NCBI GenBank assembly: GCA_964426735.1
Contig: CAYRRP010000004.1
Location: 25,142 to 88,448, forward strand
Source of the DNA: an uncultured Candidatus Saccharibacteria bacterium
GTDB taxonomy: Bacteria; Patescibacteriota; Minisyncoccia; Phycocordibacterales; DATDWN01
Length of the DNA: 63,307 nt
Direction of reading: 5' to 3'
The notes beneath the pieces are model-generated. The model saw only the letters and a program-made list of their open reading frames with translations. It ran no database searches and was not told the origin of the DNA. Position 1 is the first letter of the stretch, and every line of letters starts with the position of its first letter. This document shows, one piece after another, positions 1-63,307 of the stretch. The translations under genes and the position numbers were made by a program.

Positions 1-55
1 CGTGGGCCGGAGGAAATCTCAATTCGACGGAATTGAGATTATCCAAAGGCACAAA
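1..55. repeat. 55-nt direct repeat, copy 1 (truncated by window edge?)
   Basis: CGTGGGCCGGAGGAAATCTCAATTCGACGGAATTGAGATTATCCAAAGGCACAAA recurs identically at 130-184. It contains the hairpin TCTCAATTC-GACG-GAATTGAGA. Confidence 0.8.
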
Positions 56-8528: not shown

Positions 8529-8640
8529 TACAATCACCTCATTTACGTCGTTGCGGTGCAAATTTTTTCACTCACCGTACGAAAAGTACGGCTTACTCAC
8601 ACATTCTCTTACGTCTAGTATCTGAAGCAATTTTACTACT
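8529..8640 (+). repeat. Dispersed ~115-nt hairpin repeat, copy A
   Basis: Core CTCACCGTACGAAAAGTACGGCT, with flanks CGTTGTTGCGGTGCAAATT and ATCTGAAGC shared with copies C and E. It starts at the stop codon of the upstream gene. Confidence 0.8.
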
Positions 8641-18055: not shown

Positions 18056-18174
18056 CTTCAAAATCTGGCGAACTCCTTTGTCGGAATTCCAATTGATGAC
18101 CGCTCACCTTACAAAAAGTAAGGCTCAGGATCATCAGTCGGCTTCCTTCGCGGATTTCATCCAGATTGTGAAAG
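18056..18174 (+). repeat. Dispersed ~115-nt hairpin repeat, copy B
   Basis: CTTCAAAATCTGG-CGAACTCCTTTGTCGGAA...CTCACCTTACAAAAAGTAAGGCT...TTCCTTCGCGGATTTCATCCAGATTGTGAAAG. It starts 2 nt after the nusG stop. Confidence 0.85.
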
Positions 18175-24652: not shown

Positions 24653-24692
24653 TACATAGGGGTACCCTATGTACATAGGGTACCCCTATGTA
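24653..24692. repeat. REP palindrome pair (back-to-back, opposite orientations)
   Basis: TACATAGGGGTACCCTATGTA (24653-24673) and TACATAGGGTACCCCTATGTA (24672-24692). The same motif flanks the RAYT gene at 49.6-50.5 kb. Confidence 0.85.
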
Positions 24693-28277: not shown

Positions 28278-28351
28278 TTGGAGCCGTACTAACGTACGGT
28301 GAGAATTATTTTTTGCAGTCCAACAACGAAATTTACCAGATTTTGAAGTTC
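28233..28351 (-). repeat. Dispersed ~115-nt hairpin repeat, copy C (inverted orientation), overlapping the ileS 3' end
   Basis: The outer stem GAACTTCAAAATCTG / CAGATTTTGAAGTTC is perfect over 15 bp. The core is GAGCCGTACTAACGTACGGTGAG. The last 15 ileS codons and its stop lie inside the element. Confidence 0.85.
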
Positions 28352-30892: not shown

Positions 30893-31008
30893 CCTTCAGA
30901 ATGGCAAACTCCTTTGTCGGAACCTTGATTGATGCCCACTCACCGTACGACAAGTACGGCTCGGGAGCATCAATCAGTTTCCTTCGCGGATTTCATCCAT
31001 CCTGAAAG
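30893..31008 (+). repeat. Dispersed ~115-nt hairpin repeat, copy D
   Basis: CCTTCAGAATGG-CAAACTCCTTTGTCGGAA...CTCACCGTACGACAAGTACGGCTC...TTCCTTCGCGGATTTCATCCATCCTGAAAG. It starts 4 nt after the upstream stop. Confidence 0.85.
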
Positions 31009-38704: not shown

Positions 38705-38822
38705 ACTTGTAAAATTACTCCATCTGCGTTGTTGCGATTCAAATTTGTTCGCTCACCGTAGGACAAGTACGGCTCACTCACAAATTCTCTCGCGCCTAGC
38801 ATCTGAAGCACTTTTTCAAGTT
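38704..38822 (+). repeat. Dispersed ~115-nt hairpin repeat, copy E
   Basis: CGTTGTTGCGATTCAAATTTGTTCGCTCACCGTAGGACAAGTACGGCTCACTCACAAATTCTCT..CATCTGAAGC. The outer stem is AACTTGTAAAA / TTTTTCAAGTT. Confidence 0.85.
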
Positions 38823-49596: not shown

Positions 49597-49650
49597 CAGA
49601 AACAAAAACCAGCAATACTTGCTGGTTTTTTTTGTTAAATAAATCTCGAA

Positions 49651-49726
49651 TACATAGGGGTACCCTATGTATTCCGCAGAAGTAGTTATCCAAAGCATAG
49701 TAGTATACATAGGGTACCCCTATGTA
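49651..49726. repeat. REP palindromes upstream of RAYT (two copies, opposite orientation)
   Basis: TACATAGGGGTACCCTATGTA (49651-49671) and TACATAGGGTACCCCTATGTA (49706-49726). Confidence 0.85.
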
Positions 49727-49749: not shown

Positions 49750-50415
49750 ATGTCAACAAGAACACTAAATTTTTCAGTCGGGGAATTTTATCACATCTAT
49801 AATCGAGGAACAGATTCAAGAATTATATTTATAGATAATGCTGATAAAGATAGGTTTATTAAATTATTATATATTGCGAATGGTACCAAACCTTTTGTTT
49901 TTCGTGACTTTCCCATAGGGGTACCCTATGTAAATGTCGATAAAGGAGATCCTATTGTTGCTATAGGTAGCTACTGCCTGATGGATAATCATTTTCATTT
50001 GCTCTTGAAGGAGATAAGTGATGGTGGTATATCTGTATTTATGACAAAAGTACTCACAAGTTATTCGTCTTATTTTAATAAAAAATATAAGCGTACAGGC
50101 AGTTTGTTTGAAGGGACATTTAAAGCAAAACATTTGGATACTGATGAATATTTAAAATATATCTTTTCGTACATTCATCTCAATCCTGTAAAAATTATTG
50201 AACCAAATTGGAAAGAGAATGGTATAAAAGATCGTGATAAGGCTAAGAGGTATTTAAAGGAATATAAGTATTCAAGTTATCTCGAGTATCTTGGGGAGAA
50301 GCGAACAGAAAATGCAATTATTAATAAAGTTGAATTTCCAGAGTATTTTGCTGATTTTAAAGAGTTTGATCTATTTATCAATGAATGGCTTTTGTTTGGT
50401 GAATATAAAATTTAA
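49750..50415 (+). CDS. REP-associated tyrosine transposase (RAYT; IS200/Y1_Tnp-like)
   Basis: HUH motif in CLMDNHFHLLLKE and the catalytic-Tyr helix YIFSYIHLNPVK. The N-terminal FYHIYNRG is typical of the family. Confidence 0.8.
   Translation: MSTRTLNFSVGEFYHIYNRGTDSRIIFIDNADKDRFIKLLYIANGTKPFVFRDFPIGVPYVNVDKGDPIVAIGSYCLMDNHFHLLLKEISDGGISVFMTKVLTSYSSYFNKKYKRTGSLFEGTFKAKHLDTDEYLKYIFSYIHLNPVKIIEPNWKENGIKDRDKAKRYLKEYKYSSYLEYLGEKRTENAIINKVEFPEYFADFKEFDLFINEWLLFGEYKI
49914..49932. repeat. REP-like palindrome inside the RAYT coding sequence
   Basis: CATAGGGGTACCCTATGTA is in frame and encodes ..PIGVPYV.. Confidence 0.75.
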
Positions 50416-50418
50416 GTT

Positions 50419-50479
50419 TACATAGGGTACCCCTATGTAAACTTAGATAAATCTCGAATACATAGGGGTACCCTATGTA
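50419..50479. repeat. REP palindromes downstream of RAYT (two copies)
   Basis: TACATAGGGTACCCCTATGTA (50419-50439) and TACATAGGGGTACCCTATGTA (50459-50479). Confidence 0.85.
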
Positions 50480-56960: not shown

Positions 56961-57079
56961 CGCTTTCAGAATTTGAATGAAATCCGAGGCGGGCGAAGAA
57001 AATAATTGGAGGCGTACTTGACTGTACGATGAGAATTATTTTCTGAAGTCTAACGAAGGAGTTCGTCAAATTTGAAAGC
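56961..57079 (-). repeat. Dispersed ~115-nt hairpin repeat, copy F (inverted orientation) between rplJ and rplL
   Basis: The reverse complement reads CTTTCAAATTTGACGAACTCCTTCGT..AATTCTCATCGTACAGTCAAGTACGCCTCC..CGCCTCGGATTTCATTCAAATTCTGAAAG. Confidence 0.85.
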
Positions 57080-59637: not shown

Positions 59638-60182
59638 TAGCTTCATTCGGTATGAAAAAAACATTGAATCTAAAAAGCGGCGTTTAGGAAACATGCTTAA
59701 TTGAATGTTGCCCAAATTCCGCTCTAAGCGGATTTTTTGTTCCACAGATTGACTCGATATTTGACAACTAAATCCCGCCACTTACTACTGACCAATGATG
59801 GGTCTTTTCGGGTGAGTAGGCGGACCAAATATTTTGTTACCTAAGATCAATAGATGTTAGATAACAGAGTATGAATGTAAAAATATAATTGTGGTTTTTA
59901 AATTTCCTAATGGGAAATTTAAGAGCATATGGTGGATGCCTAGACTCTAAAAGGCGATGAAAGACGCGGCATGGTGGCGATACGTTTCGGGGAGGTACCT
60001 AGCAACCTTTGATCCGGAAATCTCTGAATGGGGGAACCCAACAGCTTTTGCTGTTACTCTGCAAATTATGCAGAGCGCACACCCAGGGAAGTAAAACATT
60101 CCAGTACCTGGAGGAAAAGAAAACAATGTTCGTAAGAACGATATTTCGTTAGTAGCGGCGAGCGAACACGAAAGAGCCCAAA

Positions 60183-60394
60183 CCGATGCATCACAGTGTG
60201 TAAAATATTTTTGTTTTGAATGGTCCGAGTGAGGAATACCTGTTATGAAAAGGGAGAAGGCCATCCCTGTGTAATGACAAAGCTCCTGCAGAGCTGGTGT
60301 TCCTCGCTCGGTCCACGGAAGTTCTTTCTGTGGCCGATTTTAAAATCGGTTTACCATTCAGTACGAAAATATTTTATATAGCGTGATGCATCGG
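60183..60394 (+). other. 23S insertion 1: helix-9 intervening sequence (~188 nt inside a 12-bp stem)
   Basis: CCGATGCATCAC (60183-60194) pairs with GTGATGCATCGG (60383-60394), between the conserved GCCCAAA and GGTTGTAAGG. The interior has nested stems. Confidence 0.8.
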
Positions 60395-60604
60395 GGTTGT
60401 AAGGCAACAACGTCAAATTTATTTGAGAGAAGTCAAAAAATAGTATGTTAATGGAATGCGCTGGAAAGCGCGACCCCAGAGGGTAATAGTCCCGTACATG
60501 AAAATCTACTATCTTCTTTGTTGTTGTTCTTGAGTACCTCGAGACATGAATAGCTCGGGGGAATCTGCCAGTACTAACTGGTAAGGCTAAATACTTTTAG
60601 AGAT

Positions 60605-60643
<39 letters not shown>

Positions 60644-60698
60644 GTCCGAGAGGACGGTGAAATAGACCTGAAACCATATGCTTACAAGGAGTCGGAGC

Positions 60699-60827
60699 GG
60701 GGGCATCACATGGAATGTGATGCAGTTTTTAGTCATTAGTCATAAGTCAACAGTAGATGCAAATGCATTTTACTGATGACTGTTAACTGTGAACTATTGA
60801 CTGCATCGCGCTTCGCGTGATGCTTCC
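60699..60827 (+). other. 23S insertion 2: helix-25 intervening sequence carrying repeat element rIE copy 1
   Basis: Inserted between CAAGGAGTCGGAGC and GTCACGGCGTGCC. The segment 60704-60822 is about 85% identical to 62413-62532. Confidence 0.8.
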
Positions 60828-61467
60828 GTCACGGCGTGCCTATTGAAGAATGAGCCAACGAGTTGATGGATGCAGCAAGGCTAAGCCCTTTACCGGGCGG
60901 AGTCGTAGGGAAACCGAGTGTGAATAGCGCGTTAAGTTGTATGCATCAGACCCGAAGCCAGAGCGAGCTTACCATGAGCAGGGTGAACTTTGTCGAAAGA
61001 TGAAGGGAGGCCCGAACAGTTTAGCCGTGCAATACTATCTGATGACTTGTGGTAAGAAGTGAAAAGCTAATCGAGCCTGGTAATAGCTGGTTCTCTCCGA
61101 AATAGCTTTTGGGCTAGCGTTAGATGATCCCTTCCGGGGTAGAGCACTGGAAGGACTCGACAGGGAGAAATCTCGCGAGTCCTATCAAACTCCGAATACG
61201 GAAGATTACAGTCTAGCAGTTAGACGGCGGGGGCTAAGCTCCGTACGTCAAAAGGGAAACAGCCCTGATCTCTATTTAAGGTCCCTAAATCTATGTTAAG
61301 TACACGTAAGGTGGTGGATTTTCTCAGACACTGAGGAGGTTGGCTTAGAAGCAGCCATCCTTTAAAGAAAGCGTAACAGCTCACTCAGTAAGAGAATCTG
61401 CGCCGCAAATAATCGGGGTTAAACATGGTACCGAAACTGAGGGTTTGTAGACTTCATCAAGAAAAAA

Positions 61468-61579
61468 TTCCAAAATTGGCGAATTTCATCTTTTTGATTT
61501 TTAAAATACTCGTCACCGTACGTCAGTACGGCTTCTCGTATTTTAAAAATCAAAAAGCGAACTTCATCCAATTTTGAAA
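61468..61579 (+). repeat. Dispersed ~115-nt hairpin repeat, copy G, inside the 23S H45 insertion
   Basis: TTCCAAAATTGG-CGAATTTCAT..TCGTCACCGTACGTCAGTACGGCTTCTC..CGAACTTCATCCAATTTTGAAA. Confidence 0.8.
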
Positions 61580-61602
61580 TTTTATAAAATGTTTTTTAAT
61601 GC

Positions 61603-61677
61603 GCATCGGTCGTCTAATGGTTAGGACATCGGACTCTTAATCCGAAAATTGGGGTTCGAGTCCCTGCTGATGCGCCA
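61603..61677 (+). tRNA. tRNA-Lys (anticodon CTT), CCA encoded, nested in the 23S insertion
   Basis: Acceptor GCATCGG/CTGATGC (one G-U pair), U8, 3-bp D stem GTC/GAC, anticodon stem TCGGA/TCCGA with loop CTCTTAA, T arm TGGGG-TTCGAGT-CCCTG, discriminator G, CCA. Confidence 0.8.
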
Positions 61678-61722
61678 CTCCAATTTTTGGAGTGAATGTT
61701 CTTTAATTTGTGTCCAAAATGT

Positions 61723-61799
61723 GGACGTGTAGCTCAGCCTGGTAGAGCGGTGCGCTGAAAACGCATATGTCGGGGGTTCGATTCCCTCCACGTCCACCA
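61723..61799 (+). tRNA. tRNA-Phe (anticodon GAA), CCA encoded, nested in the 23S insertion
   Basis: Acceptor GGACGTG/CACGTCC, D arm TAGCTCAGCCTGGTAGAGC, anticodon loop CTGAAAA, T arm GGGGG-TTCGATT-CCCTC, ACCA. Confidence 0.88.
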
Positions 61800-62410
61800 C
61801 TCTCTTTCAGAGAGTGGTACACAAATTTTTTCTTTCGATTTTTTAAAATCGAATTCTTGATGAAGTCTACAAGCGGTAGGAGAGTATTCGTATCTGCGCT
61901 GAAGCCAAAGGGGTGACCCATGGTGGAGCGATGCGAAGTAAGAATGTTGGCACAAGTAACCACAATGCAGGTGAAATCCCTGCACGCCGAAAGACTAAGG
62001 TTTCCTGTTCAATGTTAATCAGAGCAGGGTTAGTCGGGCCTAAGGAAATGGAGAGATCCGCATCCGATGGACATAGGGTTAATATTCCCTAACTTTTGTG
62101 TAATGCGATGGAAGGACGGAGTGCTGTATATAGGGCTCATTATTGGATTTGAGTCACTGCCGTGAGATTGTGTTCCAGGTAAATCCGGACACTCACTTAA
62201 ATGTGGAATTCGAGCGGTTGCGAAACCTTGAGATTCGTCAAGAGGGATCCTATAAAGCGCGCTTCCAAGAAAAGTTTCTAAGCTTAAGTACACAAGAACC
62301 GTACCGTAAACCGACACAGGTAGTCAGGTCGAGTAGACCAAGGCGAACGAGTGAGAGATCCCCAAGGAACTCGGCAAAAAAGCAGCCGTAACTTCGGAAT
62401 AAGGCTTGCC

Positions 62411-62535
62411 CCCATCACATGGAATGTGATGGTGGTCATAAGTAGACAGTCATAAGTCAACAGAAAATGCATATGCATTTTACTAATGACTATTGACTGT
62501 GAACTGTTGACTTCATCGCGCTTCGCGTGATGGGG
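62411..62535 (+). other. 23S insertion 4: helix-63 intervening sequence carrying repeat element rIE copy 2
   Basis: Inserted between CGGAATAAGGCTTG and CGCAGCTAAAG..GGCAACTGTTTATCAAAAACACAG. The closing stem is CCCCCATCAC / GTGATGGGGG. Confidence 0.8.
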
Positions 62536-62688
62536 GCCGCAGCTAAAGTATTTCTGGCAACTGTTTATCAAAAACACAGCTCCCTGCGAACTCGCAAGAG
62601 GATGTATAGGGGGTGACACCTGACCAATGCCAGAAGGTCAAATATGGGAGGTGATGTCGCAAGACTGAGCTTGACTGTATAAGCCCTG

Positions 62689-62723
<35 letters not shown>

Positions 62724-62967
62724 TGTGCGAACGAATCATATCGTGCGCACAAGGACTGGGACTGTTGTAGTTCTGTTGATACAATAAAATGTTCAATTTT
62801 ATTTATTGGCATTTTGATAAACTAACTAAACAATAATCATTACATTTCTAGCTACCTATCATGCCGTAATGCATGAATAGTCCAACGTGATTGACGAGAG
62901 ACCAACGTCACGGACCCGAAACTTGCAAAGTTGGGTTAAGAGAGAGTCCAACGGAGAGGAATCGTTG
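62724..62967 (+). other. 23S insertion 5: candidate ORF-less group I intron at about E. coli position 1931
   Basis: It interrupts GGTCCTAAGGT | AGCGAAATTCC. The upstream exon ends in T(U) and the insert ends in G. It contains an AAGAGAGAGTCC (J8/7-P7-like) segment and a duplicated AGTCCAACG. No ORF is present. Confidence 0.45.
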
Positions 62968-63307
62968 AGCGAAATTCCTTGTCGGGTAAGTTCCGACGCG
63001 CACGAATGGTGTAATGACTGGAAAACTGTCTCGGGGATTTGCTCGGTGAAAATACAATACCGGTGAAGATGCCGGTTACCTGCAGTTAGACGAAAAGACC
63101 CCAGGAGCTTTACTGCATCTTGATATTGAGAATATGACTTGCATGCGTAGCATAGTGGTGAGGATTTGAAGGGCACTTCCGGGTAGCCTGGATCCGTCAG
63201 TGAAATAGCCATCTTGTTTGTTATATTTTCTAACCTCGGCGGAAAAAACGACGAGAGACAGTGTCTGGTGGGCAGTTTTAGTGGGGCGCTATCCTCCTAA
63301 AAAGTAA

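What the first reader, a model, noticed from the sequence alone, without database searches (positions are those of the whole stretch)
60699..60827. The same ~120-nt structured element is inserted in two different 23S helices (H25 and H63)
The segments 60704-60822 and 62413-62532 align end to end at roughly 85% identity by eye. The shared sequence reads CATCACATGGAATGTGATG...GTCATAAGTCAACAG.A.ATGCA.ATGCATTTTACT.ATGACT.TT.ACTGTGAACT.TTGACT.CATCGCGCTTCGCGTGATG.

They interrupt two unrelated conserved contexts. The first is the H25 region after CAAGGAGTCGGAGC. The second is the H63 region after CGGAATAAGGC.

Each copy has terminal mini-hairpins (CATCACAT-GGA-ATGTGATG and CATCGCG-CTTC-GCGTGATG) and a long central hairpin around the palindrome ATGCA-ATGCAT.

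Homologous insertions at two variable-helix tips imply a sequence that spreads between rRNA helices by mobility or gene conversion. Independent expansion-segment growth would not produce this.
Basis: seen in the sequence. Interest (0 to 1): 0.75.

Follow-up and report, generated by a model that had tools for sequence, protein, structure and literature searches.

The report
Shared hairpin insert in rRNA helices
The two look-alike 120-base inserts in this 23S rRNA gene belong to an apparently undescribed family of hairpin-shaped, probably mobile inserts with near-identical ends, found at many helix tips of rRNA and RNase P RNA across the Candidate Phyla Radiation bacteria.

Summary
Bases 60704-60822 (helix 25 tip) and 62413-62532 (helix 63 tip) of a CPR-type 23S rRNA gene are paralogues. 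Their 19-nt ends are identical and their middles are 78% alike.

Collection scans found more than 80 elements with the same ends (CATCACATGGAATGTGATG ... CATCGCGCTTCGCGTGATG). All lie in sense orientation. They occupy about 12 helix tips in 23S and 16S rRNA, rRNA leader and trailer sequence, and RNase P RNA, in many CPR lineages.

Middles differ between lineages but keep a 7-nt periodicity. Copies within one genome share their middle. A close relative (97.8% identical core 23S) has the same two sites filled. Its middles are only 62-70% like the window's but 93% like each other, and it has a third copy that the window lacks. This indicates ongoing copying or gene conversion.

Both end hairpins match a GTAG-tagged REP pair that flanks a RAYT transposase gene in Pirellulaceae. 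The most likely reading is therefore a REPIN-like hairpin element that colonises stable-RNA helix tips. What mobilises it, and whether the RNA is excised, remain untested.

The searchable literature treats such short CPR inserts as uncharacterised.

The parts
59909..63307 (+). Host gene: bacterial-type 23S rRNA (CPR/Patescibacteria-like), cut by the window end. No 16S lies upstream.
   Evidence: Rfam RF02541, 1623.7 bits. Closest held relatives are L043 (97.8% core identity) and a Zambryskibacteria MAG, L015.
60704..60822 (+). Copy A of the clamped hairpin element (119 nt), at the tip of helix 25.
60704..60722 (+). Copy A, 5' clamp CATCACATGGAATGTGATG: a perfect 8-bp palindrome with a 3-nt loop.
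   Evidence: The stem is 100% paired in 24 family members.
60723..60803 (+). Copy A middle: an imperfect long palindrome built from about 7-nt units (TAGTCAT ... / ... NTGACTG) around ATGCAAATGCAT.
   Evidence: TRF reports period 7 at 60729-60749. Lag-7 autocorrelation is 0.66. Fold.
60804..60822 (+). Copy A, 3' clamp CATCGCGCTTCGCGTGATG: an 8-bp palindrome with one G.U pair and a 3-nt loop.
   Evidence: The stem is 99.5% paired.
62413..62532 (+). Copy B of the element (120 nt), at the tip of helix 63.
62413..62431 (+). Copy B, 5' clamp, identical to that of copy A.
62432..62513 (+). Copy B middle, 78% identical to the middle of copy A.
62514..62532 (+). Copy B, 3' clamp, identical to that of copy A.
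60189..60388 (+). Possible third, degenerate or variant member. This 200-nt insert sits at about Ec 274, a site that intact clamp elements occupy in L008, L026, L029, L036, L041, L082 and L103. Only the outer CAUCAC/GUGAUG pairs (plus GCG) match the clamps.
   Evidence: Low confidence.

Best explanation
The two segments are paralogous copies of a widespread CPR (Patescibacteria) family of non-coding hairpin insertion elements that sit on the apical loops of helices in stable RNA genes.

Anatomy:
- A member has two conserved 19-nt palindromic end hairpins, here called clamps.
- Between them lies a fast-evolving, lineage-specific palindromic middle with a 7-nt repeat register.

Proposed mechanism:
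- The element behaves like a REPIN or PATE-type non-autonomous mobile element.
- Copies are duplicated to new helix tips and keep exchanging sequence within a genome, by transposition and/or gene conversion.
- New copies survive only where a rod-like extension of an RNA helix is tolerated.
- The element is transcribed as part of the pre-rRNA. It then folds either into one long rod (clamps paired with each other) or into a four-way junction (each clamp a hairpin).
- It is then either kept as an expansion segment or cut out at the clamp helix by RNase III, like classical 23S intervening sequences.

Shown here:
- homology of the two copies;
- family membership;
- conserved ends and a conserved 7-nt register;
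- confinement to stable RNAs, always in sense orientation;
- concerted evolution within genomes;
- a copy-number difference between close relatives;
- sequence identity of the clamps to a RAYT-associated REP pair in Pirellulaceae.

Inferred, not shown:
- mobilisation by a HUH/Y1 (RAYT-like) transposase acting on single-stranded DNA hairpins;
- the fate of the element in the RNA.
For: Two paralogous copies:
- The copies are 88% identical with identical ends, far beyond chance.

A family that uses many sites:
- The 5' clamp scan of species-representative genomes gave hits in 15 CPR loci. Together with nearby variants these hold 24 elements. They lie in 23S (Ec about 130, about 274, H25, H45, H63, H68), in 16S (H6, about 180), in the 16S trailer and in RNase P RNA.
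- The independent 3' clamp scan of metagenomes gave about 62 more elements. It added sites near Ec 230, 1545 and 2796 (H98), the 23S leader, and two copies in one RNase P RNA.
- None of the elements whose flanks could be mapped was in antisense orientation.

Clamps:
- The intra-clamp stems are paired in 100% and 99.5% of cells and show compensatory variants, for example CATCACCCGCAGGGTGATG.
- The two loops are complementary and covary (GC 20, UA 2, AU 1, UG 1).

Middles:
- The best self-similarity lag is exactly 7 nt in 56 of 62 distinct elements, although the sequences differ between lineages.

Sequence exchange within genomes:
- Copies share their middle within the window, L013, L019, L020/L029, L040, L043, L056, L068, L087 and L093.
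- Window versus L043: core 23S 97.8% identical; same-site middles 62-70%; within-genome middles 78% (window) and 93% (L043).

Gain or loss:
- L043 has a third copy in its L1931 intron that the window lacks.

REP link:
- In Pirellulaceae the same hairpins carry a GTAG tag, are multicopy and intergenic, occur as 5'-like plus 3'-like doublets, and flank a RAYT-like ORF (NF047646, E = 5e-15).
- RAYT-like genes exist in CPR genomes, including this window (PF01797, 29.3 bits, above the 23-bit cut-off).
Against: - No transposase cognate to the clamps was found in about 800 kb of held CPR sequence.
- The RAYT-like genes in the window, L008, L054 and L095 are flanked by other palindromes, of the ...ATAGG...CCTAT... 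type, not by the clamps.
- CPR copies lack the GTAG tag and show no conserved target motif or target-site duplication.
- Copy numbers per genome are small and no intergenic copy was seen, unlike REPIN populations.
- Exact conservation of the 19-mers across very distant CPR lineages is unusual for REPs, which normally co-diverge with their RAYT. It could instead reflect an RNA-level function.
- The middle folds equally well as sense or antisense RNA (35 of 66), so strand-specific RNA selection is not visible there.
- Both scans were anchored on exact clamp 19-mers, so clamp conservation is partly built into the sample. Each scan did leave the other clamp free, however.
Confidence: 0.7

Rival explanations
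1. The element is a functional RNA module. The clamps are a sequence-specific recognition or processing site in the transcript, for a CPR RNase III, another nuclease or an RNA-binding protein. Selection, not mobility, keeps the 19-mers constant. Copies are homogenised only by gene conversion. The resemblance to Pirellulaceae REPs reflects an ancient shared origin and has no mechanistic meaning today.
For: - All elements lie in highly expressed stable RNAs and in sense orientation.
- The clamp sequences are nearly invariant across lineages whose rRNA cores are only about 75-80% identical.
- The loops of the two clamps covary. This is expected if the two clamps pair in the RNA.
- The clamp-clamp helix is more stable in the sense strand: 4 G.U and 2 A.C pairs, against the reverse counts in antisense.
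- No cognate transposase was found.
Against: - The stems of each clamp are kept paired even where this breaks clamp-clamp pairing. At columns 11/60, 8 of 24 sequences are unpaired, yet the same change makes a G-C pair inside the 3' clamp. Two A.C mismatches are conserved in the clamp-clamp helix.
- Sites are filled patchily, and the number of copies differs between close relatives.
- The same hairpins are ordinary multicopy REPs next to a RAYT in another phylum.
- Nothing here shows a protein partner or cleavage.
Confidence: 0.22
2. These are ordinary, independently arisen RNase III intervening sequences or expansion segments at two variable helices, with only superficial similarity.
For: - Helix 25 is a classical IVS site.
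- Short ORF-less CPR inserts have been presumed to be RNase III IVSs (PMC11270868).
- Both copies form long stems.
Against: - The copies are 88% identical end to end with identical 19-nt termini.
- The same termini occur at about 12 sites in more than 80 elements.
- Helix 63, helix 68, 16S helix 6 and RNase P RNA are not classical IVS sites.
Confidence: 0.04
3. The similarity is an assembly artefact: one locus duplicated, or a chimera through a repeat.
For: Repeat-mediated chimeras do occur with this element. Contig L100 joins the helix 63 5' flank to the 3' flank of the about-274 site across one element.
Against: - The two window copies differ at about 12% of positions and have different, correct rRNA flanks in the expected gene order.
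- The relative L043 was assembled independently with elements at the same two sites.
Confidence: 0.01

Closest known systems
REPINs (REP doublets forming hairpins) and their RAYT transposases
   Same: - Two short palindromes in inverted orientation bracket a spacer, and the whole folds into a hairpin of about 100 nt.
- Copies within a genome resemble each other more than copies in other genomes.
- Both clamps match a GTAG-REP pair of Pirellulaceae (19 of 19 and 17 of 19 positions) that flanks a RAYT-like gene.
- RAYT-like genes are present in CPR genomes.
   Different: - CPR copies have no GTAG or CGTC tag.
- There are only a few copies per genome, all inside stable RNA genes rather than extragenic.
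- The RAYT-like genes seen in CPR are flanked by other palindromes.
- The end sequences are conserved across a whole superphylum.
- The middle is long and has a 7-nt register.
Bacterial 23S rRNA intervening sequences (helix 9/25/45 IVSs of Salmonella, Campylobacter, Leptospira, Coxiella and others)
   Same: - Inserts at helix tips extend the helix into a long stem.
- Their distribution is sporadic.
- Copy A is at the classical helix 25 site.
- CPR short inserts have been presumed to be of this type (PMC11270868).
   Different: - Here one homologous element occupies many helices, including 16S, RNase P RNA and an intron.
- The ends are conserved across lineages. To my knowledge (not checked here), classical helix 25 and helix 45 IVSs of one genome are not related to each other.
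- RNase III excision is untested here.
Mitochondrial repetitive hairpin-forming or double-hairpin elements and yeast GC clusters
   Same: Short mobile hairpin repeats are found in variable regions of rRNA genes. They are reported to stay in the transcripts (PMC2800124).
   Different: - They occur in organelles.
- They are mainly intergenic, with only occasional rRNA copies.
- They have no conserved pair of terminal palindromes around a periodic middle.
- They share no sequence with this family.
Rickettsia palindromic elements (RPE) (from my own knowledge, not checked here)
   Same: Palindromic repeats of about 100-150 nt persist inside functional genes, because they insert where the product tolerates an extra hairpin or loop.
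   Different: - RPEs sit mostly in protein-coding genes, in frame.
- Their sequences are different.
- They are restricted to one genus.
IS200/IS605-derived PATEs (palindrome-associated transposable elements) (from my own knowledge)
   Same: - There are subterminal imperfect palindromes at both ends.
- There is no target-site duplication.
- Orientation is strictly strand-specific.
   Different: - No conserved target tetranucleotide lies next to the left end.
- No cognate TnpA was found.

Membership tests
REPIN (RAYT-mobilised REP doublet) | Two copies of a REP palindrome in inverted orientation that together form a hairpin | tested here: met
   Each clamp is an 8-bp palindrome. The 3' clamp is the reverse complement of the 5' clamp apart from six transitions. 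The whole element folds as one rod.
REPIN (RAYT-mobilised REP doublet) | Conserved GTAG (or CGTC) tetranucleotide next to the palindrome | tested here: not met
   The tag is present in the Pirellulaceae copies. The bases next to the clamps in 24 and about 62 CPR elements are not conserved.
REPIN (RAYT-mobilised REP doublet) | Many extragenic copies per genome | tested here: not met
   The 63-kb window has only the two copies, both inside the 23S. All CPR copies that could be placed are in rRNA, rRNA spacers or RNase P RNA. Whole genomes could not be scanned.
REPIN (RAYT-mobilised REP doublet) | A RAYT gene in the same genome flanked by the same REP | tested here: inconclusive
   The window has a RAYT-like ORF (49750-50415), but it is flanked by TACATAGGGGTACCCTATGTA. 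Homologues in L008, L054 and L095 have yet other palindromes. Only a fraction of each genome is held.
RNase III-excised 23S intervening sequence | Insert at a helix tip that forms an extended double-stranded stem | tested here: met
RNase III-excised 23S intervening sequence | Removed from the transcript without religation, giving fragmented 23S rRNA | not testable with these tools
   No transcript data are available.
MITE | Terminal inverted repeats plus a target-site duplication | tested here: not met
   The ends are inverted repeats. The flanks are complementary host-helix strands, not direct repeats.
IS200/IS605-type PATE | Conserved target or cleavage tetranucleotide 5' of the left-end hairpin | tested here: not met
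   Only a G before and a C after the clamps are common.
Group I or group II intron | Match to the intron covariance models or the catalytic core | tested here: not met
   A permissive Rfam scan of 59800-63307 gives no intron or other family at the two copies. The only match is a chance-level miRNA hit (E = 0.57).

The most novel reading that the evidence does not exclude
The elements may be a new class of genetic element specialised for stable RNA genes. Its own conserved pair of recognition hairpins and a repeat-generating process with a fixed 7-nt step would let it target apical loops of structured RNA genes, through single-stranded DNA or RNA hairpins. Alternatively, or in addition, the elements could recruit a CPR-specific factor to ribosomes and RNase P. 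In either case the conserved clamps would be read by machinery not yet identified, rather than by a classical RAYT.
Probability: 0.25. Interest if true: 0.85.

Novelty: new variant of a known kind. Interest (0 to 1): 0.72.

Why it matters
CPR bacteria are known for heavily interrupted rRNA genes. The introns and homing endonucleases have been catalogued, but the many short ORF-less inserts were left uncharacterised (PMC11270868).

These results show that a large share of them form one coherent family. The family has a simple diagnostic signature, which can be used to:
- annotate and mask the inserts;
- avoid repeat-mediated rRNA chimeras in MAGs;
- trace recombination or horizontal spread among CPR lineages.

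The family also raises three testable questions:
- what reads the conserved clamps;
- why a 7-nt register persists while the sequence turns over;
- whether REP/RAYT-type systems can colonise structural RNAs.

Finally, it links rRNA expansion and fragmentation in bacteria to a defined repeat family rather than to slow growth of each helix.

Tried and rejected
- **Known RNA families.** Rfam at gathering and permissive thresholds gave nothing for the element.
- **Source genome.** Exact-protein look-ups either failed or returned a contig that ends before the 23S.
- **Failed call.** One multi-locus Rfam call failed internally and was split into smaller calls.
- **Literature.** Searches for the clamp sequences and for CPR rRNA insert descriptions found no prior description.
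- **Cognate transposase.** A tblastn search of all held loci found CPR RAYT-like genes only with other flanking palindromes. The idea that the window's own RAYT moves the element is therefore unsupported.
- **RNA-strand selection on the middle.** Comparing sense and antisense folding energies showed no asymmetry (35 of 66, p = 0.79). The asymmetry of whole elements comes from the near-constant clamps.
- **Beggiatoaceae and cyanobacterial heptamer repeats.** A link to the TAACTGA/STRR repeats was considered because of the AGTCAT units. The organism is CPR and that literature reports no rRNA connection.
- **tRNA-like cloverleaf.** This reading of the four-way fold was considered and dropped, because the clamps have 8-bp stems with 3-nt loops.

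Full report
**Context**

The window has about 38% G+C and a CPR-like gene content. It ends in a bacterial-type 23S rRNA gene at 59909-63307, which the window end cuts short. No 16S gene lies upstream.

The closest sequences I could fetch are:
- metagenome contig L043, 97.8% identical over 2210 core positions;
- a Candidatus Zambryskibacteria MAG (L015), about 85% identical.

The organism is therefore a Parcubacteria-group member of the Candidate Phyla Radiation.

The 23S is interrupted several times relative to E. coli:
- about 200 nt near Ec 274;
- the two elements in question, at helix 25 and helix 63;
- about 430 nt in helix 45, containing two tRNA genes;
- 244 nt at Ec 1931.

**The observation**

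The segments 60704-60822 and 62413-62532 align end to end. Identity is 88% with a few flanking bases included and 91% over the 3' 85 nt.

Both start with CATCACATGGAATGTGATG and end with CATCGCGCTTCGCGTGATG. Neither 19-mer occurs anywhere else in the window, even with three mismatches allowed, and shuffles predict essentially none.

The cmscan alignment and an alignment to E. coli rrlH place copy A in the helix 25 loop and copy B in place of the helix 63 tip.

Each copy folds into a single long rod (-70.5 and -72.2 kcal/mol, z about -10.8).

**A large family**

I scanned one genome per bacterial species for the 5' 19-mer. This gave 31 loci.

Fifteen are CPR MAGs: Saccharibacteria, Taylorbacteria, Zambryskibacteria, Berkelbacteria and unnamed Patescibacteria. 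In every one of them the 19-mer opens an element that closes with the 3' clamp or a near variant of it. Relaxed matching found further copies in the same genes, giving 24 elements in all.

Rfam and alignment to E. coli place these elements in:
- 23S rRNA near Ec 130, near Ec 274, and in H25, H45, H63 and H68;
- 16S rRNA in helix 6 and near position 180;
- 30 nt downstream of a 16S gene;
- the P3 region of an RNase P RNA.

An independent scan of metagenome contigs with the 3' 19-mer gave 76 loci. In about 62 elements a 5' clamp lies 70-240 nt upstream, and in roughly 60% of these it is the exact 19-mer.

Their flanks map to the same sites and to several more:
- 23S near Ec 230, near Ec 1545 and at about Ec 2796 (H98);
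- the 23S leader;
- one RNase P RNA that holds two copies.

Every element whose flanks could be mapped lies in the sense orientation of its host RNA. About 20 further 3'-clamp hits had no recognisable 5' clamp. Most of these sit in G+C-rich sequence that does not look like CPR. A few are cut by contig ends or probably have a 5' clamp outside my search pattern (L044, L059, L066, L073).

**Anatomy of the family**

*Clamps.* On a 24-sequence alignment of flanks, clamps and adjoining bases:
- The stems inside each clamp are paired in 100% (5' clamp) and 99.5% (3' clamp) of cells.
- Changes that improve the 3' clamp hairpin (G.U to G-C in 8 sequences) break the corresponding clamp-to-clamp pair.
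- The metagenome set adds a doubly compensated 5' clamp, CATCACCCGCAGGGTGATG.
- The 3-nt loops of the two clamps are complementary and covary: column pair 15/56 is GC in 20 sequences, UA in 2, AU in 1 and UG in 1.

The data therefore support both the individual hairpins and the clamp-to-clamp pairing. This is what two inverted copies of one palindromic repeat would show.

*Middles.* They cannot be aligned between distant lineages, but they share one property. In 56 of 62 distinct elements the arms are most self-similar at a lag of exactly 7 nt (mean 0.54, against 0.38 for shuffles, whose best lags scatter evenly). I cannot explain this conserved register.

The middles fold equally well as sense or antisense RNA, so I see no strand-specific RNA selection on them.

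**Evidence for exchange and turnover**

In every genome or contig that holds several copies, the copies share the same middle. This holds for the window, L013, L019, L020/L029 (one MAG), L040, L043, L056, L068, L087 and L093.

The comparison with L043 is the sharpest test:

| Comparison | Identity |
|---|---|
| Core 23S, window vs L043 | 97.8% |
| Middles at the same site, window vs L043 | 62-70% (shuffled baseline 51 ± 3%) |
| Window, helix 25 copy vs helix 63 copy | 78% |
| L043, helix 25 copy vs helix 63 copy | 93% |

Paralogues are thus closer than orthologues. The middles have diverged about fifteen times faster than the rRNA core.

L043 also has a third copy, with the L043-type middle, inside its intron at Ec 1931. 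The window's intron lacks it.

These facts require ongoing copying between sites, by gene conversion or by reinsertion. They exclude independent growth of each helix. They do not tell the two mechanisms apart.

**Link to REP/RAYT systems**

The remaining hits of the first scan are mostly Pirellulaceae, Planctomycetaceae and Verrucomicrobiota (one is a Salinicoccus sp. hit that may be chance). In those genomes:
- The same hairpin is a multicopy intergenic repeat.
- It carries a GTAG tag.
- It is paired with CATCACACTCCGTGTGATG or CATCACGCTCCGCGTGATG. The latter matches the CPR 3' clamp at 17 of 19 positions.
- It often sits in the same 5'-like then 3'-like order as in CPR.

In L030, arrays of these hairpins flank an ORF that matches REP-associated tyrosine transposase (NF047646, E = 5e-15, below the curated cut-off) and Y1_Tnp. 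GTAG-tagged REPs in the PVC group are known in general (PMC3733652).

The CPR element therefore has the architecture of a REPIN, and its two ends are homologous to a REP pair of a real RAYT system.

However:
- The CPR copies lack the GTAG tag.
- They show no target-site duplication or conserved target.
- The RAYT-like genes I found in CPR contigs are flanked by different palindromes. One of these genes is in this window at 49750-50415 (PF01797, 29.3 bits).

Mobilisation by a RAYT is thus a lead from homology, not a result.

**Most likely explanation and rivals**

I consider it most likely (0.7) that these are REPIN-like, essentially selfish hairpin elements. They persist at RNA helix tips because a rod-like extension is tolerated there, and they keep being copied or converted within genomes.

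The main rival (0.22) is that the clamps are read in the RNA, by a nuclease such as RNase III or by a binding protein, and are conserved for that reason. In its favour are:
- the strict sense orientation;
- the restriction to stable RNAs;
- the covarying loops;
- the phylum-wide constancy of the 19-mers.

The two explanations are not mutually exclusive.

Ordinary independent IVSs (0.04) and assembly artefact (0.01) are contradicted by the data. Contig L100 does show that the repeats can cause chimeric assemblies.

**Comparison with the literature**

- The survey of CPR rRNA inserts detects inserts of at least 100 bp. It classifies the introns and homing endonucleases. It leaves the short ORF-less inserts uncharacterised, suggests they may be RNase III IVSs, and notes that Saccharibacteria have almost only such short inserts (PMC11270868).
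- It does not mention conserved ends. Neither does the earlier ribosome paper from the same group (PMC9297842).
- Full-text searches for the clamp sequences found no relevant paper.
- The nearest described phenomena are REPINs, classical 23S IVSs, mitochondrial repetitive hairpin or double-hairpin elements that sit in rRNA variable regions and stay in the transcript (PMC2800124), and Rickettsia palindromic elements (from my own knowledge).

I therefore rate this as a new variant of a known kind. The literature accessible here is limited to open-access papers and bioRxiv.

**Limits**

- Both collection scans were anchored on exact 19-mers, so more diverged members are under-sampled and clamp conservation is overstated.
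- Whole genomes could not be scanned, so the absence of intergenic copies rests on the anchored hits.
- Helix assignments outside H25, H45, H63 and H68 are approximate, from pairwise alignment to E. coli.
- Many metagenome contigs come from related samples and are not independent.
- The fate of the element in the RNA is untested.

Noticed in passing
window 61443-61873 (tRNAs at 61603-61677 and 61723-61799): The helix 45 insert of the 23S holds two well-scoring tRNA genes, tRNA-Lys(CUU) and tRNA-Phe(GAA) (62 and 71 bits). A stem of about 27 bp bounds the insert. If these tRNAs are processed out, the 23S must be fragmented at this point. The close relative L043 has a short helix 45 without this insert.
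   Followed up: partly
window 49750-50415; palindromes at 49650-49671, 49705-49726, 49914-49935, 50418-50439, 50458-50479 and 24653-24692: A RAYT-like gene (Y1_Tnp, 29.3 bits; REP_Tyr_transpos, E = 6e-8) is flanked on both sides by the palindrome TACATAGGGGTACCCTATGTA. One copy lies inside the ORF. Homologues in L008 (38% identical), L054 (64%) and L095 lie 4-9 kb from rRNA genes. Each is flanked by its own related palindrome, and L008 also has one inside the ORF at the equivalent place.
   Followed up: partly
window 8573-8591, 18105-18123, 30941-30959, 38754-38772 (+), 28284-28301, 57012-57031 (-), 61514-61531 (+): A second dispersed hairpin repeat has the core CTCACCGTAC-N4-6-GTACGGCT and members up to about 100-120 nt (pairs 18066-18163/30902-30999 and 28237-28357/56965-57087). 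It occurs seven times in 63 kb. One copy lies inside the helix 45 insert of the 23S.
   Followed up: partly
window 62724-62967: A 244-nt insert sits at the Ec 1931 intron site, but no Rfam group I or II match was found even at E = 1. The orthologous insert in L043 is longer and carries a third clamp element.
   Followed up: partly
window 60189-60388 compared with L043: The insert near Ec 274 keeps a conserved outer stem of about 45 bp in both relatives, including CAUCAC/GUGAUG. Its interior of about 110 nt is entirely different between the window and L043, although the core rRNA is 97.8% identical.
   Followed up: partly
L043 (reverse complement), inserts opposite window positions about 60934 and about 61205: The relative carries two copies of another hairpin insert of about 190 nt (GAGACCYCACAACAAAAATAATGAC ... 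GTTATTTTTGTTGTGRGGTCT) at two further 23S sites that are empty in the window. This is a second repeat family with presence/absence differences between close relatives.
   Followed up: no
L100 (Ga0209542_10370945): This contig joins the helix 63 5' flank to the 3' flank of the about-274 site across a single element. It is probably an assembly chimera through the repeat.
   Followed up: no
all elements (window 60723-60803 and 62432-62513; loci L002-L109): The arms of the middles have a 7-nt periodicity in 56 of 62 distinct elements, although the repeated heptad differs between lineages. No explanation was found.
   Followed up: partly
window 1-55 and 130-184: A perfect 55-nt direct repeat with 129-nt spacing lies at the very start of the window. 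Each copy contains an inverted repeat (AATCTCAATTC...GAATTGAGATT) (D7 and I20).
   Followed up: no
L020 7471-7632 (-): A Saccharibacteria contig gives an above-threshold Rfam match to the alphaproteobacterial sRNA family BjrC1505 (64.3 bits), just downstream of its 16S gene and clamp element. This is an unexpected taxon for that family.
   Followed up: no
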